A DNA stretch of 26,225 nt from a virus (IMGVR_UViG_2537562013_000006:1-26225); one strand, 5' to 3'; numbered from the stretch's first letter, positions 15,864-26,225 are shown. Notes: generated from the letters alone by a model not told the origin. A program made the numbers and translations.

Positions 15864-16388
15864 TTACCGGGACTGTTCTATTTGTCGGACACCAGCCAAC
15901 TGGTTATTCGCCTTCTCGATGGCTGCCAACAGTGGGTTAATCCACAGAACAGCCTGGCAATATGTCAACGTTCTGGTGGTAGTGGCACGATCACCGGCTG
16001 AGTCAATGTCCCCGGAATCGGCGTGCAATGCGCTGGCGCGTAAACGGTTCGCGTAGTTGAGCAACCCGACAGCAATATCAACAGGAACAGGGAAATCACA
16101 GTTCTTTTCACGGAGCAGAACCTCACGGTATTTGATGACTGTCTTCTCGTGACCGATGTCGACCAGAGAATTTAATCGGCTTGCGTTTTCTGCTATCTGG
16201 TTAAAACGATTGAAGTTTAATGCCTGATTAGCTATCACTTTCCCTTGATATTCAGCTTCACCTTCCGCTTTATCAGCCCACAACTTTTCTGCCTGATACT
16301 TGCTGTGGTAATGGTTTGCAGACCAGACGAGCGCCCCAAAGGCAGAGAAGAAAAATGCCGCGATGACAATCTTATAAGTCAGCTTCAT
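15864..16388 (-). CDS. Rz-like inner-membrane spanin (174 aa)
   Basis: N-terminal transmembrane segment (IVIAAFFFSAFGALVW) followed by a helical periplasmic domain. Third gene of the holin-endolysin-spanin cassette; its start overlaps the endolysin 3' end. Confidence 0.7.
   Translation of the reverse strand: MKLTYKIVIAAFFFSAFGALVWSANHYHSKYQAEKLWADKAEGEAEYQGKVIANQALNFNRFNQIAENASRLNSLVDIGHEKTVIKYREVLLREKNCDFPVPVDIAVGLLNYANRLRASALHADSGDIDSAGDRATTTRTLTYCQAVLWINPLLAAIEKANNQLAGVRQIEQSR
15965..16111 (-). CDS. Rz1-like outer-membrane lipoprotein spanin, embedded in Rz in the +1 frame (48 aa, GTG start)
   Basis: Hand translation of the +1 frame inside Rz gives (M)KRTVISLFLLILLSGCSTTRTVYAPAHCTPIPGTLTQPVIVPLPPER. 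It has a lipobox (LLSGC) and a Pro-rich mature part with a second Cys. GAGG lies 9 nt upstream of the GTG. Not in the ORF track because it is under 60 aa and non-ATG. Confidence 0.55.
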   Translation of the reverse strand: MKRTVISLFLLILLSGCSTTRTVYAPAHCTPIPGTLTQPVIVPLPPER

Positions 16389-16848
16389 TTACCACCCCAC
16401 CAGCATCTTTAAACCTGGAAATCAGGTCACCGATTTTATGTTCATACTGACCGTAACCTGCACCAGGTAACGACGCCCAGATATTGCTGCAACGGTCGAT
16501 TGCCTGACGAATATCGCCACGGTCAATCATCGGTAAAGCGCCACGCTCTTTAATCTGCTGCAGCGCCACAGCGTCCTGACTTTCTGGCGAAAAATCTTTC
16601 AGGCCAAGCTGCTTGCGGTAGGCATCCCACCAGCGTGAAAGAAGCTGATACCGGCCTGCGGCTGTTGATTTAAGCTTCGGGTTTAGCGTGACAAGTTTGC
16701 GAGGGTGATCGGAGTAATCAGTGAACAACTCACCTCCGACGATAACGTCATAACCGTGATTACGTGTCGGTTGTCGCCCGTTATCCGTTCCTTCTGACCA
16801 TGCCACCATATCCAGGAAAGCTTTGCGTTGGGAATTTAGTGTCTGCAT
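16372..16848 (-). CDS. R: Endolysin, lambda R-type lytic transglycosylase (158 aa)
   Basis: Near-identical over most of its length to phage lambda R as I recall it (QRKAFLDM.AWSEGTDNGRQ.TRNHGYDVIVGGELFTDYSDHPRKLVTLNPKLKST.AGRYQLLSRWWDAYRKQLGLKDFSP), including the catalytic Glu in WSEGTD. Confidence 0.9.
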   Translation of the reverse strand: MQTLNSQRKAFLDMVAWSEGTDNGRQPTRNHGYDVIVGGELFTDYSDHPRKLVTLNPKLKSTAAGRYQLLSRWWDAYRKQLGLKDFSPESQDAVALQQIKERGALPMIDRGDIRQAIDRCSNIWASLPGAGYGQYEHKIGDLISRFKDAGGVVNEADL

Positions 16849-16851
16849 GAA

Positions 16852-17193
16852 TTACTCCTTAGAGCCACCAAACTTGTTACCGATTACTCGCATTGCAGCC
16901 CCACGAATAGCATCGACACCGATCAGCCCAACACCACCACCAATGGCAACAGAAAGAGATTTAGGCCATCCAACATACTCAAGAGCGGATGCAAAGGTCA
17001 GCGTCAGAGCACCACAGAGCAAAATCTCAAGCGTTTTTCGTTTCCAGCCGCCGCCACCGCCAAAATAGGCAATGCGCAAGCCAGCCATAACAATTGACAT
17101 AACCACTGCGCCCAACGGCGTATCTCCACGCCACCAACTTTGTAAGAGTTCCAGTAAGTCAGGCCAGGAATGAGGAGCATTGTGCATTTTCAT
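16852..17193 (-). CDS. Class I holin with dual-start motif (113 aa from M7; track ORF starts at 17211)
   Basis: Strong SD GGAGGT 7 nt upstream of the ATG at 17193 followed by Met-Lys-Met (MKMHNAP...), the same arrangement as the lambda S107/S105 dual start. Three predicted transmembrane segments. Immediately upstream of the endolysin. Confidence 0.8.
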   Translation of the reverse strand: MKMHNAPHSWPDLLELLQSWWRGDTPLGAVVMSIVMAGLRIAYFGGGGGWKRKTLEILLCGALTLTFASALEYVGWPKSLSVAIGGGVGLIGVDAIRGAAMRVIGNKFGGSKE

Positions 17194-17294
17194 ACTTCCC
17201 ACCTCCGCCATTACGGGGTGTTGTTGAAAGGCGGGCCCTGCGTATACGCCCGTAGGATTGGGTTATGAGCCGTCCTTCGGTGGGCCCTGAATAC

Positions 17295-17571: not shown

Positions 17572-17638
17572 TCTTCGTGATGAACTGTTTTCAACAGATA
17601 TCAGGCTAATCGGCTTTTTGGAATTCCACAACTATTTT

Positions 17639-17980
17639 TTATCTTACCTTGATGCCTGATGCCGTCAGATGTTTACGACAGTCCTGAATACCTTCGTTAT
17701 AACCCGCATCGTAGAAGCTATCCGGCTTTGCCTTCAGCGCAGGAAGCGTAACGCTGGTAGCTCTTCGTTCGGCCAGAACACCTGCCTGAAAGAGTGTCCA
17801 CATCAACTGAACTGCTGAATCACAGTAAGTAACATCTTCACTGTACAATTCTCGTTCAATCCTGATGCCAAGTTGAGCCTTCATTGATGCGCCAATATTA
17901 CCTTTGACCTGCAACGACAGGTCTGGGTACCTCTGTTCCATGAAGCTTTCAAATCTGTTGCGAACGCTGATCAGAGCCAT
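17639..17980 (-). CDS. Hypothetical protein (113 aa) between the Q-like gene and the lysis cassette
   Basis: ATG at 17980 with AAGGGA SD, 31 bp after the Q-like stop. No recognisable motif. Confidence 0.5.
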   Translation of the reverse strand: MALISVRNRFESFMEQRYPDLSLQVKGNIGASMKAQLGIRIERELYSEDVTYCDSAVQLMWTLFQAGVLAERRATSVTLPALKAKPDSFYDAGYNEGIQDCRKHLTASGIKVR

Positions 17981-18011
17981 CTGGTTCCCTTACGTGATTG
18001 ATTGCTGGATA

Positions 18012-18434
18012 TTATGCCGCCGAGCAGCTCCTACGCAAAGTCCTGATAGCCTGAGGCTTTGACTGAACCGACTGATCCATTTCGAGCACCACATCCAGCA
18101 TGGCTAAGCAACCGTCAATAAATCCCTCTGCCGCCTGAAGCCTCTTCAGAACGTGGGTGTGAGATACGCCGAGCTTCTCACCCATCGCCCGCACGGGCAT
18201 GGCCTGGACGTAATGCCACTCAAGGAGCGTGCACAGATACGGATCTTTTTTCTTCAGGCAGCTCATAGCGGAGTTGATGATAAGACCGTCATTGTCACTG
18301 CATTTCAGCCTTCCAGACTGCGTCGCGGGTAGCAGATTCTTAAACCCGGCTGCAACAGGAGGAAAGTAGACGCTACCACCTTCACTCGCTGCCCAGCCAC
18401 CCCAGCGCTCTAAAACCTGTTGAATATTACGCAT
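18012..18434 (-). CDS. Putative late-gene antiterminator, short Q-like (140 aa)
   Basis: ATG at 18434. Located between the replication genes and the lysis cassette. N-terminus (MRNIQQVLERWGGWAA...) and size resemble short Q-type antiterminators of lambdoid prophages as I recall them; not verified. Confidence 0.5.
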   Translation of the reverse strand: MRNIQQVLERWGGWAASEGGSVYFPPVAAGFKNLLPATQSGRLKCSDNDGLIINSAMSCLKKKDPYLCTLLEWHYVQAMPVRAMGEKLGVSHTHVLKRLQAAEGFIDGCLAMLDVVLEMDQSVQSKPQAIRTLRRSCSAA

Positions 18435-18487
18435 AGCTCTGACCTCTACGTTTTGCTACGAAAAATTTTTCTGAGAACTACGTCTGT

Positions 18488-18760
18488 TTATCCGTGGGTG
18501 TGGATAACGCAGTTCCGATCCGCATATTGCATGTATCAACATGCAAAAAGTTGCTAATTCGGAGTGGAACCACCTGCCCCCACCTGGAACCACCTTTTCC
18601 TAACCTTTCCCTCAATCGACTTATATATATATATGGGGTTTCTAGTAGAAAGGCGGTTCCAGTGGTTCCAGTAGTTCCGCCCCGCTTGCCACAAGGTCTG
18701 CAAGGTGGAACCACCTTCTCTTCTAGGTGGTTCCGCGTGGTTCCAGCGGTTCCCAAACCT
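18488..18760. repeat. Putative replication origin: iteron cluster (GGAACCACC / GGTGGTTCC), AT-rich tract, DnaA-box-like inverted pair and a 7-bp-arm palindrome
   Basis: GTGGAACCACCT-type 11-12-mers at 18564-18575, 18584-18595 and 18705-18716. GGTTCC copies at 18655, 18664, 18729, 18739, 18748 and a degenerate one at 18673. (TA)n tract at 18621-18634. TTATCCGTG (18488-18496) and a perfect DnaA box TGTGGATAA (18499-18507). Palindrome TTGCATG-N6-CATGCAA at 18527-18546. Lies immediately 3' of the primase gene. Confidence 0.55.
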
Positions 18761-20909
18761 TGCATTTTTTCCCCCCAATTCGCCTTTGGGCACGCTTATA
18801 CCCGCAATTTTGCAAAACATTACTAATTCGCATTTCTTCGCGTTTTCCGATGCGGTCAGGATTTAGCCCAATCGCATCACGCAAAACATCACTTGCGCGT
18901 AAAAATTCGCAATTTCGCGGAAGTTCATTAGTCATCAGGTCGGGCGTGTCGAGCCATTTCTCTACCGTTTCAAGCCAAGCATCCTTGATGGTGTACTGTT
19001 CATGGACACTCGCTGCCAGTTGTTCAGCCTCACGGAACTGGATACCCCCCAGACGCTGAAACACCTCACGAGCCTCAGCCCAAAGTAAAAGGAGATCTCT
19101 TTTTATCGCTTTCACGTCGACTTTCGACACTTCCACGGGGAGCCAGCGACGGTTACCAGTCTTGTCCGCAAGGAATTCGTCCTCATTAGTGGTACCAACG
19201 AACACCAGGCGACGAGGAAACTGGGTGGCGAACTCCCGGTATTTCGGGATCCAGTTTTCGTGAGTACGCGTCACAAACGCTTTGATTGACTCCAGCTCTT
19301 TGGTATTAAGCCCGCGCAGTTCACCAATCTCTGCCACCAGCCGACCACGCATTTTTCGAGCGAGATCATCGTCTTTTTCGGCAAAAGAGATTTCAGTAAA
19401 AAACGCAGGATCAGGGCTCAGTGCCTCCACTCCGGAAGACTTACCGCAGCCCTGCGGACCAACGAGGATCGGCACCATATCCGCTTTGATGCCTGGCTCC
19501 AGTACTCGCCCCGCCAACGCGGTCCACATGTACATAGACACCGCACGGGTATAAGGCGTGTCGGCGGTACCGAAGTGCGTATGGTAGAAACATTCGATGC
19601 GCGGCACGCCATCCCACTCCAGTCCGTTCAGCCAGGTGATCGCTGAATCGAATGGTTGTTCATCGGCTGCAAGTAACACCACATCGCGAATAAGTTCACG
19701 GCCAACAGGTTTAAATCCCCGCTTTTCCATCGTGATGCGCAGGCGCGCATAATCCGCATCGGTGAATGCCCGCCATTGTCCGGATCCTGCCGGGGCAAAC
19801 ATGATTTCGTCGCGGAACTGGTCAAAGCGAATATCGATGTCCACAAAATCAGAGCGTACTACTGCTTTGGCTGCATTGCTGATGGTTGCCTCGATACGCC
19901 CCCATTTATCACGCTCGAAAGCAGGCAGCGGTAAAGGTTCCGCCACTTCGATGCTGGTCAGATCTTCGAAATCGTCGTTGCGGATCCCGATGGCATTCAG
20001 GAAATCTCCGTCATCACGATGCGCGCAACTGGCATGCAGGCATTTAAAATGCCCCTGCTCAAAGCCTGCGGTTCCCGCAGGAAAATAAACTGTGCTTGTT
20101 GGATCGCCTCCGCTACTGTGGCCGTCTTCAAACGGACAGCGGATATATCGTTCACCGTTTGCGCCATCCAGCAGCGTCCAGCCATTGGCATCAAGATATT
20201 CAGCTGTATCATCCGTCGCGCCGGGCGTGAATGCTGAACGGTCGCGCATCTTCGTGTTGCCCGCTTCGGTGGTTACCGACACAGGGAGTTGTTCAGCCAG
20301 GCGCTGCCACAGCGTTTCAAGCTGCTCACCTGTAATAGCCGGAGGTTCATCCGGCAAACCACCGTCCCATTCAATACGCGCGCCGCTGCTGTGCGTACCA
20401 CAGGCAACGAACTGCTGCCCGTTCGCCAGCAACTCGATAATGCCCATATCCCCCGCCAGGCGATGGATACGCTTACGGAAATCACCATCAACGGCCAGCA
20501 GATACAGACACTTATTACTGTTTGCTCGCCAGCGTCGCGGCGGCGACTCACCCAGAAGTTGCACAAGTGTTTTGCGAATATCTGCCTGAATGTCTTCATC
20601 TTCGCTATCGCAGTCCAGCGCCAGCCAGCCATGGCCTGTACGCACGCAGATGCCATAATCCGGTTCATTCGACCAGCGGGCAAAATCATGCTCAGTAACA
20701 ACATGCCCGGTCCATTGAGCAATACCTGTGACCTGGCGGTCCCGGTTATAGCGACTCGGCGTCTTACCCAACGCTTTCAATTTACTATCAGGGGATATGG
20801 TCGCACTGGGGTTACATACAACTGGGAGAAGATGAGCAGTCCGCCCCAATACCAGGTCGAAATGAAACCACTCATCAGGCGTAGCTCCCCATGGTTTGCT
20901 ATCGGACAT
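18723..20909 (-). CDS. Replication primase-helicase (PrimPol N-terminal domain, zinc-binding region, VirE/P-loop C-terminal domain; 728 aa)
   Basis: N-terminal primase-polymerase-like region (GWLALDCDSED), Cys/His cluster (CPFEDGH...FKCLHASCAH), Walker A GPQGCGKSS. ATG at 20909 with AAGGTG SD, 3 nt after the cro-like stop. Confidence 0.85.
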   Translation of the reverse strand: MSDSKPWGATPDEWFHFDLVLGRTAHLLPVVCNPSATISPDSKLKALGKTPSRYNRDRQVTGIAQWTGHVVTEHDFARWSNEPDYGICVRTGHGWLALDCDSEDEDIQADIRKTLVQLLGESPPRRWRANSNKCLYLLAVDGDFRKRIHRLAGDMGIIELLANGQQFVACGTHSSGARIEWDGGLPDEPPAITGEQLETLWQRLAEQLPVSVTTEAGNTKMRDRSAFTPGATDDTAEYLDANGWTLLDGANGERYIRCPFEDGHSSGGDPTSTVYFPAGTAGFEQGHFKCLHASCAHRDDGDFLNAIGIRNDDFEDLTSIEVAEPLPLPAFERDKWGRIEATISNAAKAVVRSDFVDIDIRFDQFRDEIMFAPAGSGQWRAFTDADYARLRITMEKRGFKPVGRELIRDVVLLAADEQPFDSAITWLNGLEWDGVPRIECFYHTHFGTADTPYTRAVSMYMWTALAGRVLEPGIKADMVPILVGPQGCGKSSGVEALSPDPAFFTEISFAEKDDDLARKMRGRLVAEIGELRGLNTKELESIKAFVTRTHENWIPKYREFATQFPRRLVFVGTTNEDEFLADKTGNRRWLPVEVSKVDVKAIKRDLLLLWAEAREVFQRLGGIQFREAEQLAASVHEQYTIKDAWLETVEKWLDTPDLMTNELPRNCEFLRASDVLRDAIGLNPDRIGKREEMRISNVLQNCGYKRAQRRIGGKKCKVWEPLEPRGTT

Positions 20910-21254: not shown

Positions 21255-21929
21255 ATGATTGATACTACCGATATCCTTTCTCAAAACATCAAGTACCTGA
21301 TGGACAAAGCCAAGATAAGCTCGATAACTGAGCTGGCACGTCGGTTACAGCTGAACCAACCAACGCTACACAGGCTGGTATCAGGAGAGGTGAAAGATCC
21401 GAAATACGCAACGTTAAAGCAGATCGCCGACTACTTCCACGTGTCACCAATAGACTTGGCAGAAAGGAGCCTTCAAGAAATGGAGAAAGAGGACGCGACA
21501 GGTATAAAAACGTATATTTCTCTTAGGTTTAATAAAGTACCTGTTTTGGGAAACACTCAGCTAGGCGTTGGAGGACTTTGGAGCGACACCCAATATTCAG
21601 TAGGTAGCAGTGATGGTTTCATATACTGGCCGACAAAGGATGAAGATGCATACGCCCTGAAATGTGTTGGTGATTCAATGATGCCTAGAATCAAAGAGGG
21701 GGAGTTCGTAATCGTCGAACCCAACCACGACTACACTCCTGGTGATGAAGTACTTGTGGTTACCCGGGAAGGTGAGGTCATGGTTAAAACCTTCTTGTTC
21801 GAACGCGATGGCCTGTTCCATCTAATGTCTGTAAATGAAGATCATCCACCAGTCAGAGTACCACGCGAAAACATTGAAAAAATCCATTACGTGGCGGGGA
21901 TCGCCAAATCCGCGCTACGTATGTACTAA
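21255..21929 (+). CDS. CI-like repressor with C-terminal LexA/S24 peptidase domain (224 aa)
   Basis: N-terminal HTH (ITELARRLQLNQPTLHRLVSG), C-terminal S24 fold with Ser in GDSMMP and Lys in VMVKTF about 38 residues later. Confidence 0.85.
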   Translation: MIDTTDILSQNIKYLMDKAKISSITELARRLQLNQPTLHRLVSGEVKDPKYATLKQIADYFHVSPIDLAERSLQEMEKEDATGIKTYISLRFNKVPVLGNTQLGVGGLWSDTQYSVGSSDGFIYWPTKDEDAYALKCVGDSMMPRIKEGEFVIVEPNHDYTPGDEVLVVTREGEVMVKTFLFERDGLFHLMSVNEDHPPVRVPRENIEKIHYVAGIAKSALRMY

Positions 21930-22347: not shown

Positions 22348-22872
22348 TCATCTGGCAGGTTGTAACGGTGCAGGAGTTTTGCCACTGACTTCTATATTTC
22401 GGGGAAATTTATATTCAGCGGAGCATTTATGACACTTGAGAATTTTATAAGCGGCATTAGAAGTATGGTATTGAAGTATAGACTTCATACCCGACTCATA
22501 GCATGTAGTACAAAGATAATGAGGCTTGAACTCAGGATCGTCAGTAGGCTTCAGTACATAGACCACCGTATTGGTAATCGGGTGGTACATTTCATAGTTC
22601 ATTTTCTCACTATCCCAATCCTGTTTCTTTTCCAGAAGGGATTCGAGTTCAACAATGCGCTGTTTAGCTTCGTTCAAAAGCTCCGTTAGTGCGAATTGTC
22701 CAGTACGCGCATCAATTAGTTTATCAAGTAGATCGATAGTTTTACTTTTAACATTGTAATCCACCTGCAACGCATTAACTTCTTTTGCTAAATCAACAGC
22801 ACCTTTCAAAGCACCACCAGCACTAGTGGCCGCCTCAGTTATACGCCGTACAAGTCCTTTTTCTTCAGACAT
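22348..22872 (-). CDS. Hypothetical coiled-coil plus C4 zinc-ribbon protein (174 aa), low-GC cargo gene
   Basis: ATG at 22872. Helical N-terminal half; C-terminal C-X2-C-X22-C-X2-C (CTTC...CHKC). GC about 40 percent by eye versus a visibly GC-richer backbone. Transcribed opposite to both neighbours. Confidence 0.55.
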   Translation of the reverse strand: MSEEKGLVRRITEAATSAGGALKGAVDLAKEVNALQVDYNVKSKTIDLLDKLIDARTGQFALTELLNEAKQRIVELESLLEKKQDWDSEKMNYEMYHPITNTVVYVLKPTDDPEFKPHYLCTTCYESGMKSILQYHTSNAAYKILKCHKCSAEYKFPRNIEVSGKTPAPLQPAR

Positions 22873-23096: not shown

Positions 23097-23246
23097 ATGA
23101 AACCTGAATACCTCCATCGACTGACGGGGCGCGATGTTCTCCGTTATCGCCGTAAAAACTTCGATTTGATGACCGGTCTGGCCGTTGCCACTGCGCTCGG
23201 TCTGATCATCACTTTCATTCTCCTTGTAGCGAGGACCACAGTATGA
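23097..23246 (+). CDS. Small membrane protein (49 aa), first gene of the rightward operon
   Basis: The track ORF begins with GTG at 23064. ATG at 23097 has AAGGA 9 nt upstream. C-terminal hydrophobic helix (LMTGLAVATALGLIITFILLVA). Stop overlaps the next start (ATGA). Confidence 0.45.
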   Translation: MKPEYLHRLTGRDVLRYRRKNFDLMTGLAVATALGLIITFILLVARTTV

Positions 23247-23545
23247 GTTTAGAAACCAGTCTCGAACTTAATAATCAACTTCTGGCACAACATAATGCGC
23301 TGCTTGAACGTCTTATCCGCACAATGGCATCAGGCATTGTTATGCATCCTGACACGATTTCACGAGTGCAGGAATGTCGGGATACAGCAACTGAAACTGA
23401 AAATATGTCAGCGGCAATGACACTGGATGATCTGGAGTTCAGCGACGTTATCGCACTGGCTGGTTTCTACCCGGTAGCCACCCCTATCACAGAAGACATG
23501 CTGCAACGTGCTGTTGCCTACCGTGATGCTGAAGGCGATGGTTGA
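23243..23545 (+). CDS. Hypothetical acidic early protein (100 aa)
   Basis: ATG at 23243, translationally coupled to the upstream gene; Asp/Glu-rich; no recognised motif. Confidence 0.5.
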   Translation: MSLETSLELNNQLLAQHNALLERLIRTMASGIVMHPDTISRVQECRDTATETENMSAAMTLDDLEFSDVIALAGFYPVATPITEDMLQRAVAYRDAEGDG

Positions 23546-23685
23546 TCCTCCAGTTAGCAAAAGGGGGTTACCGGGCAGAAGCTATTGCAATTCTGGAAAA
23601 ACAGGGAGCCAGGAAACTTGGTGAAGTAACGGATGAAAATCTCGCTGAAGTAATCACCCTGGCTGAAAAAGCACTGGAGGGTTAA
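23542..23685 (+). CDS. Possible small ORF (47 aa, TTG start) filling the gap before the nuclease gene
   Basis: Open frame from TTG at 23542 (GAAGG 6 nt upstream) to TAA at 23683-23685, ending 2 nt before the nuclease ATG. Reads [47 protein letters not shown]. No ATG; weak call. Confidence 0.25.
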
Positions 23686-25004: not shown

Positions 25005-25553
25005 ATGAAACTGAAGCTGAACAATGTTCGTCTGGCCTTCCCGTCTCTGTTTGAAGCTAAAACTGTAAACGGCGAAGGCGATCCACGTTTCTCCGCAGTA
25101 TTTTTAATGTCACCCAAACACCCACAACTGGAAGAAATCCGTAAAGCTATGAAGCAGGTAGCGAAGGAAAAATGGGGAGAGAAGTGGGAGCCCATTTATA
25201 ACCAACTGGAGAAAAAACTCAAGCTGTGCCTGCATGATGGTGATGAAAAAGCAGAGTATGAAGGCTTCCCCGGCAATTTCTTCCTGAATGCTGCTAACAA
25301 AGCGCGCCCAGCTGTTCTTGATCGCGATCGTTCGCCACTTATTCAGGCTGATGGACGTCCCTATGCAGGGTGCTATGTAAACGCCGTTATCGATATCTGG
25401 GCACAGGACAATAATTTCGGTAAACGCATTAATGCCTCACTCGGCGGAGTCCAGTTCCTGCGAGACGGCGATGCATTCGCTGGCGGCGGAGTGGCAAGCG
25501 CTGACGATTTCGACGATATCAGCGAAGGTGCTGATGCTGAAGCACTGATTTAA
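25005..25553 (+). CDS. SSB-like protein (182 aa; DUF2815-type as recalled)
   Basis: AGGAAA SD; acidic C-terminal tail (DDFDDISEGADAEALI) reminiscent of SSB tails; follows the nuclease gene, as is usual for this gene pair. Confidence 0.65.
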   Translation: MKLKLNNVRLAFPSLFEAKTVNGEGDPRFSAVFLMSPKHPQLEEIRKAMKQVAKEKWGEKWEPIYNQLEKKLKLCLHDGDEKAEYEGFPGNFFLNAANKARPAVLDRDRSPLIQADGRPYAGCYVNAVIDIWAQDNNFGKRINASLGGVQFLRDGDAFAGGGVASADDFDDISEGADAEALI

Positions 25554-25605
25554 CCCTACTTCATAGACGCCCGGTTAAATACCGGGCTGCTGATTAGGCG
25601 TATAA

Positions 25606-26225
25606 TCACTCAGGAATCTTAATCTTCCTCAATTCTTTATTTAGTTCACAGATCTTCTTCTTAGACGGGAAAGTATCATACATCCAAAAACCAACAGTCT
25701 CTAAAACTATTGTCATAACCATATACACAAGATAATTTAAAAGGCCTTCATTTTGCCCTATGGAAATAATGCAGATAATAGAAAAAAGGATAAACAGCAC
25801 AAAACACAGAAAGGAAAACAGACGACTAATAATAAATAAAAAACCTGAAAAATTAACATTGATGAAAAACACTCCGTTATCTTTCTCTATATAATTCTGA
25901 AGCTTAATCACCTGATTTATATACTGTCTTTTTTCTAATCTATTGCAAATGTAAATAACATCACTTCGGTTATAAGAAGATTGCAATTTCAGCGCATCAC
26001 GAATAATTTTATCATTTATTCTTTTTTCTATGGCACTCTTATCCTCCTTATCCAGATAACGTTCATACTTAACTAAATATAAAATTAACTTCTTGACATA
26101 TTTAGGCTCTTTATACTTATAATTAAAAATGATCTTTCTTATCCAGACTCCCATAACAATCAAACATGAAAAAATATATCCAGCTATTTTCTCCAGATGC
26201 TCTGTATGGTCAATCAAGTATTGGA
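25606..26225 (-). CDS. AT-rich gene for a multi-pass membrane protein of unknown function, 5'-truncated by the window edge
   Basis: The track start at 26217 is TTG and the frame remains open to the window end, so the true start is probably outside. Very low GC. Predicted TM segments near residues 10-30, 120-150 and 160-180 of the listed ORF. Convergent with the early operon. Confidence 0.5.
   Translation of the reverse strand, partial: QYLIDHTEHLEKIAGYIFSCLIVMGVWIRKIIFNYKYKEPKYVKKLILYLVKYERYLDKEDKSAIEKRINDKIIRDALKLQSSYNRSDVIYICNRLEKRQYINQVIKLQNYIEKDNGVFFINVNFSGFLFIISRLFSFLCFVLFILFSIICIISIGQNEGLLNYLVYMVMTIVLETVGFWMYDTFPSKKKICELNKELRKIKIPE

What the first reader, a model, noticed from the sequence alone, without database searches (positions are those of the whole stretch)
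25606..26225. AT-rich gene for a multi-pass membrane protein at the right edge (candidate exclusion or abortive-infection cargo), truncated by the window
This gene has by far the lowest GC in the window, is convergent with the early operon and encodes a Lys/Ile/Asn-rich protein with several hydrophobic helices and no recognisable motif. Such compositionally foreign membrane proteins in prophages are often superinfection-exclusion or abortive-infection factors. The reading frame runs off the window, so more of the gene and possibly partner genes lie beyond 26225.
Basis: partly seen in the sequence, partly recalled or inferred. Interest (0 to 1): 0.5.

Follow-up and report, generated by a model that had tools for sequence, protein, structure and literature searches.

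The report
Orphan membrane-protein cargo gene in prophage
A very AT-rich, back-to-front gene wedged into the DNA-replication operon of an E. coli prophage encodes a three-helix inner-membrane protein of an uncharacterised family that keeps turning up in the swappable "cargo" slots of unrelated prophages and in defence islands, which makes it a reasonable but untested candidate for a new anti-phage protein.

Summary
Window 25606-26225 (minus strand) is a real gene with 29.5% GC against 50.7% for the window. It is convergent with the DUF2815 gene. The window cuts off only 10 nt: the full protein is 209 aa (WP_000551021.1, "hypothetical protein").

No partner gene lies beyond the edge. The next gene is the phage's own DNA polymerase, 46 bp away and divergent.

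The protein is predicted to have an N-out TM1, a ~95-aa basic cytoplasmic helical domain, a TM2-TM3 hairpin and a short cytoplasmic helix.

It matches only phrog_10579 (unknown function). There is no credible Pfam, NCBIfam, PADLOC, PDB or BFVD match, and no homology to lambda SieB or RexB.

About 50 clusters of relatives exist. All those with a named source organism are Enterobacterales, and every gene measured has 29-35% GC. They always occur as single genes:
- the same DUF2815|PolA slot, which is a precise swap-cassette site;
- the P2-like S|V (orf30) slot;
- after umuDC at the ends of lambdoid prophages;
- antisense between RecT and a PAPS-reductase gene;
- next to Septu-like, type I R-M and DpdF-like genes.

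The same prophage also carries BstA.

Best reading: an autonomous prophage cargo gene for a membrane-acting anti-phage protein. Function is inferred from context only.

The parts
25606..26225 (-). Coding sequence of the 209-aa membrane protein (WP_000551021.1). It includes the stop codon at 25606-25608. The window holds residues 5-209 plus two bases of codon 4. The ATG lies 10 nt past the window end, at window-equivalent 26235.
   Evidence: ORF and translation. RefSeq and GenBank annotate a 630-bp CDS in ETEC H10407 and in phage vB_EcoM-606R2. Residues upstream of Met28 are conserved in relatives, which supports the long start.
26131..26187 (-). TM1, residues about 17-35. The acidic N-terminal tail (residues 1-16) is predicted to be periplasmic.
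   Evidence: Kyte-Doolittle windows. AF2 helix 11-37. Mean net charge of the N-tail across 32 relatives is -1.
25852..26130 (-). Predicted cytoplasmic domain, residues about 36-128. It is basic, with four to five helices plus a beta-hairpin, and carries the family motif Y57-x3-L61-x2-(E)D65-K66 and R90.
   Evidence: Mean net charge is +7.8 across the family. Conserved columns. AF2 model built with 32 sequences: pLDDT 80.5, H44-56, H63-82, H90-99, H103-111, E116-125.
25675..25851 (-). TM2 (residues about 129-160) and TM3 (about 165-187), forming a hairpin joined by a 4-6-residue acidic or neutral periplasmic turn. Glu179 within TM3 is conserved in the E. coli and Xenorhabdus clades.
   Evidence: Hydropathy. 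AF2 helices 132-160 and 165-188. Segment charges and the column for position 179.
25609..25674 (-). C-terminal basic cytoplasmic helix (residues 188-209) carrying the best-conserved positions of the family: I195, the invariant N199, and K204.
   Evidence: Alignments A1-A3 and A5. AF2 helix 192-202.
25569..25587 (.). A 7-bp GC-rich hairpin (GCCCGGT-TAAAT-ACCGGGC) between the two convergent stop codons. Neither strand has a U-tract after it.
   Evidence: Folding z-scores of -2.1 and -3.3. No terminator-like site in the scan. Flank homology with the L005 prophage runs to L001 12033, which covers all but the last base of the hairpin, so the hairpin belongs to the conserved left flank rather than to the cargo.
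25554..26225 (.). Variable cargo slot of this prophage family. It runs from the base after the DUF2815 stop to the PolA start codon (window-equivalent 26282, outside the window).
   Evidence: Between prophages, homology stops at the DUF2815 stop (or 33 nt after it) and resumes at or 8 nt before the PolA ATG. Alternative contents are Nmad5 plus an unrelated 229-aa protein, BRO-N plus a 199-aa distant homologue, or a nonsense allele of this gene.
25005..25553 (+). DUF2815 (Enc34-type ssDNA-binding) gene. It is the last conserved gene before the slot and is convergent with the cargo gene.
   Evidence: RefSeq annotation and ORF. Pfam Enc34_ssDNA-bd on the Citrobacter counterpart.

Best explanation
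This is a self-contained, horizontally mobile single-gene cargo cassette (a 'moron') inserted antisense into the replication operon of a temperate myovirus-type prophage. It encodes an inner-membrane protein. The predicted order is a periplasmic N-tail, TM1, a ~95-aa basic cytoplasmic helical domain, a TM2-TM3 hairpin, and a conserved cytoplasmic amphipathic helix. I propose that the prophage expresses it to protect the lysogen from other phages by an abortive-infection-type mechanism. In this model the conserved cytoplasmic domain and C-terminal helix detect an infection cue, and the transmembrane helices, probably as an oligomer, then perturb or depolarise the inner membrane. Shown: the gene is real; it is cargo in a precise swap slot; the topology pattern holds across the family; it always occurs as a single gene; it sits in phage cargo slots and defence islands; it has no homology to known families. 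Inferred: expression in the lysogen, the anti-phage role, the cytoplasmic sensing, and the membrane-perturbing effector step.
For: Cargo status. GC is 29.5% against 50.7%. The slot boundaries fall exactly at the DUF2815 stop and the PolA ATG. The DUF2800/DUF2815 module is present in 156 of 5426 E. coli genomes. Of the E. coli genomes searched, 67 carry this gene, 7 carry a homologue that hhalign relates at E 2e-12 (21% identity over the aligned columns; the two are not alignable at DNA level), and 26-59 carry unrelated Nmad5-type cargo.

Autonomy. No neighbour is conserved across contexts. These contexts are: DUF2815|PolA (10 IMG/VR loci plus Citrobacter); the P2-like S|V slot (4 IMG/VR loci plus a MAG), which the literature names as a horizontally acquired region (PMC3091744); after umuDC at the ends of lambdoid prophages (8 IMG/VR loci, Klebsiella, Enterobacter); antisense between RecT and PAPS-reductase genes; the end of a CP4-57-like island; and a lone gene upstream of thrS in Xenorhabdus.

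Defence neighbourhood. The Serratia copy lies beside a PtuA-like ATPase (8e-31), a PtuB/PDC-M01B-like gene and type I HsdS, in an integrase island. Another copy lies about 5 kb from a DpdF/PsyrT-like helicase (3.5e-101). The same prophage carries BstA (2.5e-110) as another reverse-oriented insert, and a sister phage carries a TIR PDC-S35 gene after PolA. BstA is a proven prophage Abi protein (PMC8585504).

Topology. The charge pattern is conserved in 32 relatives: N-tail -1, large loop +7.8, TM2-TM3 turn -1, C-tail +2.3. Nearly all conserved residues are therefore on the cytoplasmic side and almost nothing is exposed to the periplasm. The AF2 model has pLDDT 80.5.

Maintenance. 58 of the 60 listed copies (67 in all) carry a CDS annotation across the full match, and dN/dS is 0.37. 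The family gene is AT-rich in every host checked.

Precedent. Lambda sieB is likewise a reverse-oriented membrane-protein gene inside an early operon.
Against: There is no functional data of any kind. There is no match to PADLOC (5027 defence models), Pfam or NCBIfam. The only PADLOC signals are weak and unreplicated: P0010 against PDC-S47 at E 4e-4, and the 199-aa allele against RT-associated SLATT at E 0.049. Guilt by association in prophage cargo slots is not specific, because such slots also carry virulence, TA, anti-defence and metabolic genes. No promoter-like site above chance was found upstream, so expression in the lysogen is assumed. Structure searches returned only generic helical bundles, so a pore or channel is not indicated by fold. 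The dN/dS estimate rests on only 13 differences. The family is small and, where sources are named, confined to Enterobacterales, unlike most broadly distributed defence families.
Confidence: 0.35

Rival explanations
1. It is a superinfection-exclusion protein that blocks genome entry at the inner membrane, working like P22 SieA, T4 Imm or HK97 gp15. Sitting in the membrane, it would interfere with the channel or host membrane component that incoming phage DNA uses. Infected cells would survive and no cell death would be involved.
For: It is an integral inner-membrane protein encoded by a prophage as stand-alone cargo. Highly divergent alleles (about 20% identity) are exchanged in the same slot of near-identical prophages, as expected for a specificity determinant in an arms race. 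One family member gives a marginal hit to the plasmid entry-exclusion protein TraS (E 0.1), and one copy lies near TraG_N conjugation genes.
Against: Only about 16 N-terminal residues and a 4-6-residue turn are predicted to face the periplasm, while the conserved positions are cytoplasmic. The family is carried by several unrelated temperate phage types (two different myovirus-type prophages, lambdoid prophages and a RecT-type phage) and by non-phage islands, which fits poorly with exclusion of one specific injection apparatus. There is no homology to known exclusion proteins: lambda SieB was tested directly and there is no PF14163 hit. The TraS signal is not significant.
Confidence: 0.2
2. 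It is a membrane protein with a function other than defence. Candidates are a lysogenic-conversion factor that changes envelope physiology or stress tolerance, a toxic membrane peptide-like addiction or competition factor, or a modulator of the carrier phage's own cycle such as lysis timing or membrane anchoring of replication.
For: Cargo slots of prophages carry many kinds of accessory genes. The gene lies between the ssDNA-binding protein and polymerase genes in one lineage and between RecT and a PAPS-reductase gene in another. There are weak, non-significant holin-like and membrane-moron PHROG hits (phrog_2508 at E 0.066, phrog_14464 at E 0.63). There are occasional null alleles: a nonsense allele in DEC5B, an internal deletion, and a frameshifted 158-aa form.
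Against: About 57% of prophages carrying this replication module lack the gene or have unrelated cargo in its place, so it is dispensable for replication. It occurs outside phages altogether. Its neighbours in non-phage islands are defence genes. Its position is unrelated to lysis cassettes in all but the P2-like context, and even there tail genes R and S separate it from them.
Confidence: 0.3
3. It is one component of a multi-gene system, or a host gene at the prophage edge, with the rest lying beyond the window.
For: The ORF does run off the window.
Against: Only 10 nt are missing. The adjacent gene is the prophage family-A DNA polymerase, followed by further phage genes and an integrase about 7 kb away. 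No neighbour is shared among the contexts examined.
Confidence: 0.02
4. It is a spurious ORF in an AT-rich spacer and not a gene.
For: AT-rich DNA is not expected to give long ORFs by chance, so little supports this. The only points in favour are the absence of a clear Shine-Dalgarno sequence or promoter.
Against: Full-length homologues of 199-218 aa exist down to about 20% identity, with conserved motifs and a conserved topology pattern. All match phrog_10579. dN/dS is 0.37. The AF2 model is confident once homologues are supplied.
Confidence: 0.01

Closest known systems
Lambda/P22 SieB (superinfection exclusion B; abortive-type exclusion by a prophage membrane protein)
   Same: It is a prophage-encoded membrane protein of about 190-200 aa, encoded by a single gene set in reverse orientation inside an early operon (lambda sieB is on the + strand between ral and N, which are on the - strand). 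It is accessory and not needed for phage growth.
   Different: There is no sequence relationship (hhalign probability 0.1%; no PF14163 hit). The architecture differs: reading the lambda SieB sequence, its hydrophobic segments are N-terminal and followed by a soluble C-terminal domain, whereas here a cytoplasmic domain sits between TM1 and a C-terminal TM hairpin.
BstA (prophage-encoded abortive-infection protein, Owen et al. 2021, PMC8585504)
   Same: It is a single-gene, prophage-borne defence cargo. A BstA homologue occupies another reverse-oriented slot of this very prophage (L001:16592-17521, PADLOC E 2.5e-110), which shows that this phage lineage uses antisense slots in its early operon for defence genes.
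   Different: BstA is a protein with an HTH-like domain and gave no match to this family's members in PADLOC; the paper describes it as localising to sites of phage DNA replication. The protein here is an integral membrane protein.
RexB of lambda and other membrane effectors of abortive infection (including SLATT-type 2TM effectors)
   Same: It is a small helical inner-membrane protein of a prophage or defence island. The proposed mode of action is loss of membrane integrity or potential on infection.
   Different: There is no homology to RexB (hhalign probability 0.2%). RexB needs the partner RexA (established knowledge), whereas no partner is conserved here. SLATT is suggested only by one marginal PADLOC hit to the 199-aa allele (E 0.049), and no Pfam SLATT model matched any member.
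phrog_10579 (PHROGs family, function unknown)
   Same: It is a member: E 2e-109 over residues 28-209. All tested relatives, including the 199-aa allele, also match.
   Different: The PHROG profile starts at Met28 and so omits TM1. Conservation upstream of Met28 in relatives shows that the longer, three-TM form is the real product. The family carries no functional annotation.
P2 orf30 / Z-fun / tin-old cargo regions of P2-like phages
   Same: A 38%-identical homologue occupies the S|V (orf30) position of P2-like prophages. That position is one of the three regions where P2-like phages carry horizontally acquired genes (PMC3091744, PMC6823313).
   Different: This is a positional analogy only. 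P2 Orf30 itself is much smaller (its ORF is 261 bp, PMC6823313) and of unknown function. No homology test was run against it.

Membership tests
phrog_10579 (unknown function) | Significant match to the family profile over most of its length | tested here: met
   E 2e-109, residues 28-209 against profile positions 1-182 of 182. Relatives score 7e-65 to 7e-4.
SieB (Pfam PF14163; lambda/P22 superinfection exclusion B) | Sequence or profile homology to SieB | tested here: not met
   Family profile A3 against lambda SieB: hhalign probability 0.07%, E 0.68. No PF14163 hit at E<=10 for the query or E<=1 for 11 members.
SieB (Pfam PF14163; lambda/P22 superinfection exclusion B) | Accessory membrane-protein gene set in reverse orientation within a prophage early operon | tested here: met
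   The window gene is antisense to DUF2800-DUF2815-PolA. Lambda sieB is antisense to ral and N. This is an analogy of arrangement, not evidence of membership.
RexB (lambda Rex exclusion, membrane component) | Homology to RexB and presence of a RexA-like partner | tested here: not met
   hhalign probability 0.19%. No partner gene is conserved in any context.
Known or candidate defence families in PADLOC-DB v2.0 | Match to any of the 5027 defence-protein models | tested here: not met
   0 hits for the query at E<=10. Among 21 relatives there were only P0010 against PDC-S47 (E 4e-4, partial) and the 199-aa allele against RTasSLATT (E 0.049).
SLATT 2TM effector domains | Match to Pfam SLATT models; two TM helices followed by a cytoplasmic helical region | tested here: not met
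   No SLATT family appeared in the Pfam scans of the query and 11 members. Precomputed Pfam fields are empty for all 45+ clusters. The domain order is different: TM, domain, then 2TM.
Holins | Homology to a holin family and location in a lysis cassette | tested here: not met
   The only signal is phrog_2508 at E 0.066 over 40 residues. The prophage's holin and endolysin lie about 8-9 kb away at window 16372-17211.
TraS / Eex entry-exclusion proteins | Homology to TraS; linkage to traG/traT in a conjugative transfer operon | tested here: not met
   PF10624 matched 1 of 11 members at E 0.1. One homologue lies about 2 kb from a TraG_N gene, but tblastn found no copy on 72,556 plasmids.
CorA-type channels (cytoplasmic domain plus C-terminal 2TM) | CorA fold with a GMN motif at the TM1-TM2 turn | tested here: not met
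   [not shown]
Prophage 'moron' / accessory cargo gene (operational class) | Compositionally deviant, present or absent among otherwise near-identical phages, with sharp junctions, dispensable | tested here: met
   GC 29.5% against 50.7%. Junctions lie at the flanking stop and start codons. Present in 67 E. coli genomes, against 156 that carry the module.
Prophage 'moron' / accessory cargo gene (operational class) | Own promoter and terminator; expressed from the repressed prophage | tested here: inconclusive
   One sigma-70-like match (TGGACA-18-TATTCT) lies upstream, but the number of matches is no higher than in shuffled sequence. No intrinsic terminator was found, only a GC hairpin without a U-tract. 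Expression data were not available.

The most novel reading that the evidence does not exclude
phrog_10579 may be a previously unrecognised single-protein, membrane-embedded anti-phage defence family. It would combine a cytoplasmic sensor-like domain with a TM-hairpin effector in one ~200-aa polypeptide. It would move as a one-gene cassette between the cargo slots of at least four temperate-phage lineages and chromosomal defence islands of Enterobacterales. Highly divergent alleles would be swapped at the same site, possibly setting different phage specificities.
Probability: 0.45. Interest if true: 0.55.

Novelty: new variant of a known kind. Interest (0 to 1): 0.4.

Why it matters
If the protein is anti-phage, it adds a compact, one-gene membrane defence or exclusion family that current detectors (PADLOC, Pfam, NCBIfam) cannot see. 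The family is present in about 1% of complete E. coli genomes, including ETEC H10407, O103:H2 12009, O55:H7 CB9615 and IAI1, and in Klebsiella, Enterobacter, Citrobacter, Serratia and Xenorhabdus. The work also defines the DUF2815|PolA interval of this prophage lineage as a precise cargo hotspot, alongside the slots that hold BstA and a TIR gene. That hotspot could be mined for further systems, much as the P2/P4 hotspots were. If the protein is not anti-phage, it remains an ordinary uncharacterised prophage accessory gene.

Tried and rejected
- Single-sequence AF2 gave pLDDT 54, which is unusable. The run was repeated with 32 homologues.
- The AFDB50 fold library was not available.
- Pfam, NCBIfam and PADLOC scans of the query and its relatives gave nothing credible.
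- A profile search of PDB sequences found nothing meaningful.
- Direct profile comparison with lambda SieB and RexB was negative.
- tblastn against 72,556 plasmids found nothing, and against 50,697 phage records found only the three vB_EcoM records.
- Literature searches for the accession, the phage name and PDC-S47 returned nothing.
- Promoter and terminator scans were not above chance.
- Rfam and tRNA scans of the window were empty.
- The search for related loci with the full alignment failed because no stretch was conserved enough. A four-sequence alignment was used instead.
- The 494-aa reverse transcriptase near the Klebsiella copies was considered as a partner and rejected. It is absent from other copies of the same locus, and its best PADLOC matches are generic RT, Cas1-associated RT and homing-endonuclease models rather than a specific DRT type, consistent with a group II intron RT (my inference).
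- DUF6338 next to the Serratia copy was considered as a partner and rejected, because it is absent elsewhere.
- My first assumption that the window equals the H10407 sequence base for base was wrong. The window carries a 460-bp deletion relative to H10407.

Full report
**1. What is in the sequence**

On the minus strand an ORF ends with TGA at 25606-25608 and stays open to the last base of the window. Over 25606-26225 the GC content is 29.5%, against 50.7% for the whole window. It is the lowest of all 620-nt windows (mean 51.1%, sd 4.1%). The gene is convergent with the 182-aa DUF2815 gene at 25005-25553.

The window is 99.9-100% identical to a prophage of ETEC H10407, apart from a 460-bp deletion elsewhere. 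The 672 bp from 25554 to the window end is 100% identical in H10407, O103:H2 12009 and 16 other complete genomes. The extended sequence shows that the CDS is 630 bp and encodes 209 aa (WP_000551021.1, "hypothetical protein"). Its ATG lies only 10 nt beyond the window. Three GenBank phage records (vB_EcoM-606R2, -689R2, -611R5) carry the same gene at 97.8% identity.

**2. Surroundings**

The gene sits inside the prophage, not at its edge. The + strand operon runs: 300-aa protein, DUF2800 nuclease, DUF2815 ssDNA-binding protein, [this gene, antisense], family-A DNA polymerase, ANR regulator, DUF4406, VRR-NUC, Dcm methylase, [309-aa gene, antisense], SNF2 helicase. Integrase and the host gene yfhL follow.

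The gene's ATG is 46 bp from the polymerase ATG, and the two are divergent. Between the two convergent stop codons there is a 7-bp GC hairpin (25569-25587) with no U-tract on either strand. No intrinsic terminator was found, and no promoter-like site beyond chance. Transcription of the polymerase from the upstream operon would thus have to cross this gene in antisense. That is an inference.

**3. The slot is a cargo hotspot**

The DUF2800/DUF2815 module occurs in 156 of 5426 complete E. coli genomes. This gene occurs in 67. In other prophages with 94-99% identical flanks the slot holds one of three things:
- Nmad5 plus an unrelated 229-aa antisense gene (26-59 genomes).
- BRO-N plus a 199-aa antisense gene (7 genomes).
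- A nonsense allele of this gene (O55:H7 DEC5B).

Homology between prophages stops at the DUF2815 stop, or 33 nt after it, and resumes at or 8 nt before the polymerase ATG. So this is a clean cassette exchange.

The 199-aa occupant (WP_000379840.1) is a distant homologue of the gene under study. hhalign gives 97.7% probability and E 2e-12, with 21% identity, the same architecture, and a match to the same PHROG.

**4. The protein**

Composition is I 14.8%, L 10.5%, K 10.5%, Y 7.2% and N 5.7%. Hydrophobic segments lie at about residues 17-35, 129-160 and 165-187.

With an alignment of 32 relatives, AlphaFold2 gives mean pLDDT 80.5 and pTM 0.63. The model has helix 11-37, four short helices (44-56, 63-82, 90-99, 103-111), a beta-hairpin at 116-125, helices 132-160 and 165-188, and a terminal helix at 192-202.

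Across the family the segment charges are: N-tail -1, large loop +7.8, TM2-TM3 turn -1, C-tail +2.3. By the positive-inside rule (established knowledge) this gives N-out and C-in. The ~95-aa domain and the C-terminal helix are then cytoplasmic, and almost nothing faces the periplasm.

The conserved positions are Y57, L61, D65, K66, I77, M78 and R90 in the cytoplasmic domain, and I195, N199 (invariant) and K204 in the C-terminal helix. A glutamate inside TM3 (E179) is conserved in the E. coli-type and Xenorhabdus clades. Conservation upstream of Met28 shows the long start is used, although the PHROG profile begins at Met28.

**5. Homology**

Only phrog_10579 (unknown function) matches, at E 2e-109. 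Pfam, NCBIfam and PADLOC give nothing credible.

A word-indexed search of 5.8 billion proteins found one 90%-identity cluster plus fragments. Exhaustive HMMER against 1.84 billion cluster representatives found 11 hits at 23-42% identity (fragments higher), most of them about 210 aa. Profile searches raised the total to about 50 clusters. All are unnamed and without a Pfam domain. Those with a named source come from E. coli, Klebsiella, Enterobacter, Citrobacter, Serratia and Xenorhabdus.

**6. Contexts of relatives**

The family always occurs as a single gene with no conserved neighbour:
- (a) The DUF2815|PolA slot: 10 IMG/VR contigs and a Citrobacter prophage.
- (b) Between tail-completion S and spike V in P2-like prophages: 4 IMG/VR contigs and one MAG. 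This is the orf30 position, one of three regions where P2-like phages carry horizontally acquired genes (PMC3091744; PMC6823313).
- (c) After invertase-umuDC at the right end of lambdoid prophages of Klebsiella and Enterobacter: 8 IMG/VR contigs.
- (d) Antisense between RecT and a PAPS-reductase-like gene in a metagenomic phage fragment.
- (e) At the end of a CP4-57-like island in Enterobacter.
- (f) In an integrase island of Serratia sp. Ag1, next to a PtuA-like ATPase (8e-31), a PtuB/PDC-M01B-like gene and a type I HsdS.
- (g) About 5 kb from a DpdF/PsyrT-like helicase (3.5e-101), near TraG_N genes.
- (h) Alone upstream of thrS in Xenorhabdus.

Every family gene measured has 29-35% GC, in hosts of 41-52% GC.

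In the same prophage the other antisense insert (L001:16592-17521) is a BstA homologue (2.5e-110). A sister phage has a TIR PDC-S35 gene after the polymerase. BstA is an experimentally shown prophage abortive-infection protein (PMC8585504).

**7. Selection**

Between the window allele and the phage 606R2 allele there are 5 synonymous and 8 non-synonymous changes. dN/dS is 0.37, against 0.05 for DUF2815 and 0.16 for DUF2800. This indicates weaker but still purifying constraint, from small numbers. Of the 60 listed E. coli copies (67 in all), 58 carry a CDS annotation across the full match. One has a premature stop and one an internal deletion.

**8. Interpretation**

Shown: this is a real, compositionally foreign, single-gene cargo cassette that encodes a three-TM inner-membrane protein of an uncharacterised family. 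That family recurs in cargo slots of unrelated temperate phages and in defence islands.

Inferred: it is expressed from the prophage and protects against other phages.

I favour an abortive-infection-type sensor-effector (confidence 0.35). The conserved surface is cytoplasmic, periplasmic exposure is minimal, and the carriers are phages with unrelated injection machineries. A SieA/Imm-like block of DNA entry is the main defence rival (0.2). A membrane function other than defence cannot be excluded (0.3). The readings 'partner genes beyond the window', 'host gene at the boundary' and 'spurious ORF' are refuted.

**9. Novelty and score**

The class, prophage accessory membrane proteins that exclude other phages, is well known (SieA, SieB, Imm, RexB). 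This family is not homologous to any of them and is invisible to current defence detectors. I therefore rate it a new variant of a known kind. Without a phenotype it is a solid candidate rather than a discovery. Interest is 0.4.

Noticed in passing
L001:16592-17521 (-), ETEC H10407 NC_017633.1 2991016-2991945; about 4.5 kb to the right of the window end: The same prophage carries a BstA abortive-infection homologue (PADLOC BstA, E 2.5e-110). RefSeq annotates it only as 'hypothetical protein'. It is also inserted antisense in the + strand early operon, between the Dcm methylase and SNF2 genes. That differs from the usual BstA position downstream of the repressor (PMC8585504).
   Followed up: partly
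window 22348-22872 (-): A 174-aa reverse-oriented ORF lies in a low-GC stretch (42-45%) just downstream of the cI-like repressor gene (21255-21929). It matches phrog_1244 (unknown function, E 1.8e-43) and has no Pfam or PADLOC hit. It is a second candidate cargo gene in the position where lambdoid phages keep rex or bstA.
   Followed up: partly
window 23539/23540 (ORFs 23243-23545 and 23542-23685): Relative to ETEC H10407 the window lacks 460 bp (L001 9527-9986) inside the 300-aa early gene upstream of DUF2800. Two short ORFs of 100 and 47 aa remain. The rest of the window is 99.94-100% identical to H10407.
   Followed up: yes
L001:12729-14803 and 17632-19026 (ETEC H10407, beyond the window): In H10407 the prophage DNA polymerase is annotated as frameshifted and the SNF2 helicase has an internal stop. 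That copy of the prophage is probably defective, yet the membrane-protein gene and BstA remain intact.
   Followed up: no
[not shown]
   Followed up: partly
L002:10857-11618 (+), phage vB_EcoM-606R2: The slot immediately after the polymerase holds a TIR-domain protein (PADLOC PDC-S35, E 1.2e-108; Pfam CAP12/Pycsar TIR, 2.9e-31). Other prophages of the lineage have ANR/DUF4406 or YfbU genes there. This is a second variable slot carrying defence-type cargo.
   Followed up: partly
Hits H76 and H77 (E. coli RMDEC465 and O121 201805972): An HNH endonuclease gene interrupts the DUF2800/DUF2815 region: the match is split into two pieces spanning about 1.66 kb instead of 1.15 kb. This looks like a homing-endonuclease insertion.
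   Followed up: no
L007:4692-6176, also L008 and L010 (Klebsiella pneumoniae prophage ends): A 494-aa reverse transcriptase lies upstream of umuDC in some copies of the locus and is absent from others. Its best PADLOC matches are generic RT, Cas1-associated RT and homing-endonuclease models, which suggests a group II intron RT. It is not linked to the membrane-protein gene.
   Followed up: partly
window 25569-25587: A 7-bp GC hairpin without a U-tract lies between the convergent DUF2815 and cargo genes. It is retained, all but its last base, in a prophage with different cargo (L005), so it belongs to the conserved flank. Its role (RNA 3'-end stabiliser, weak bidirectional terminator or recombination junction) is unknown.
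   Followed up: partly
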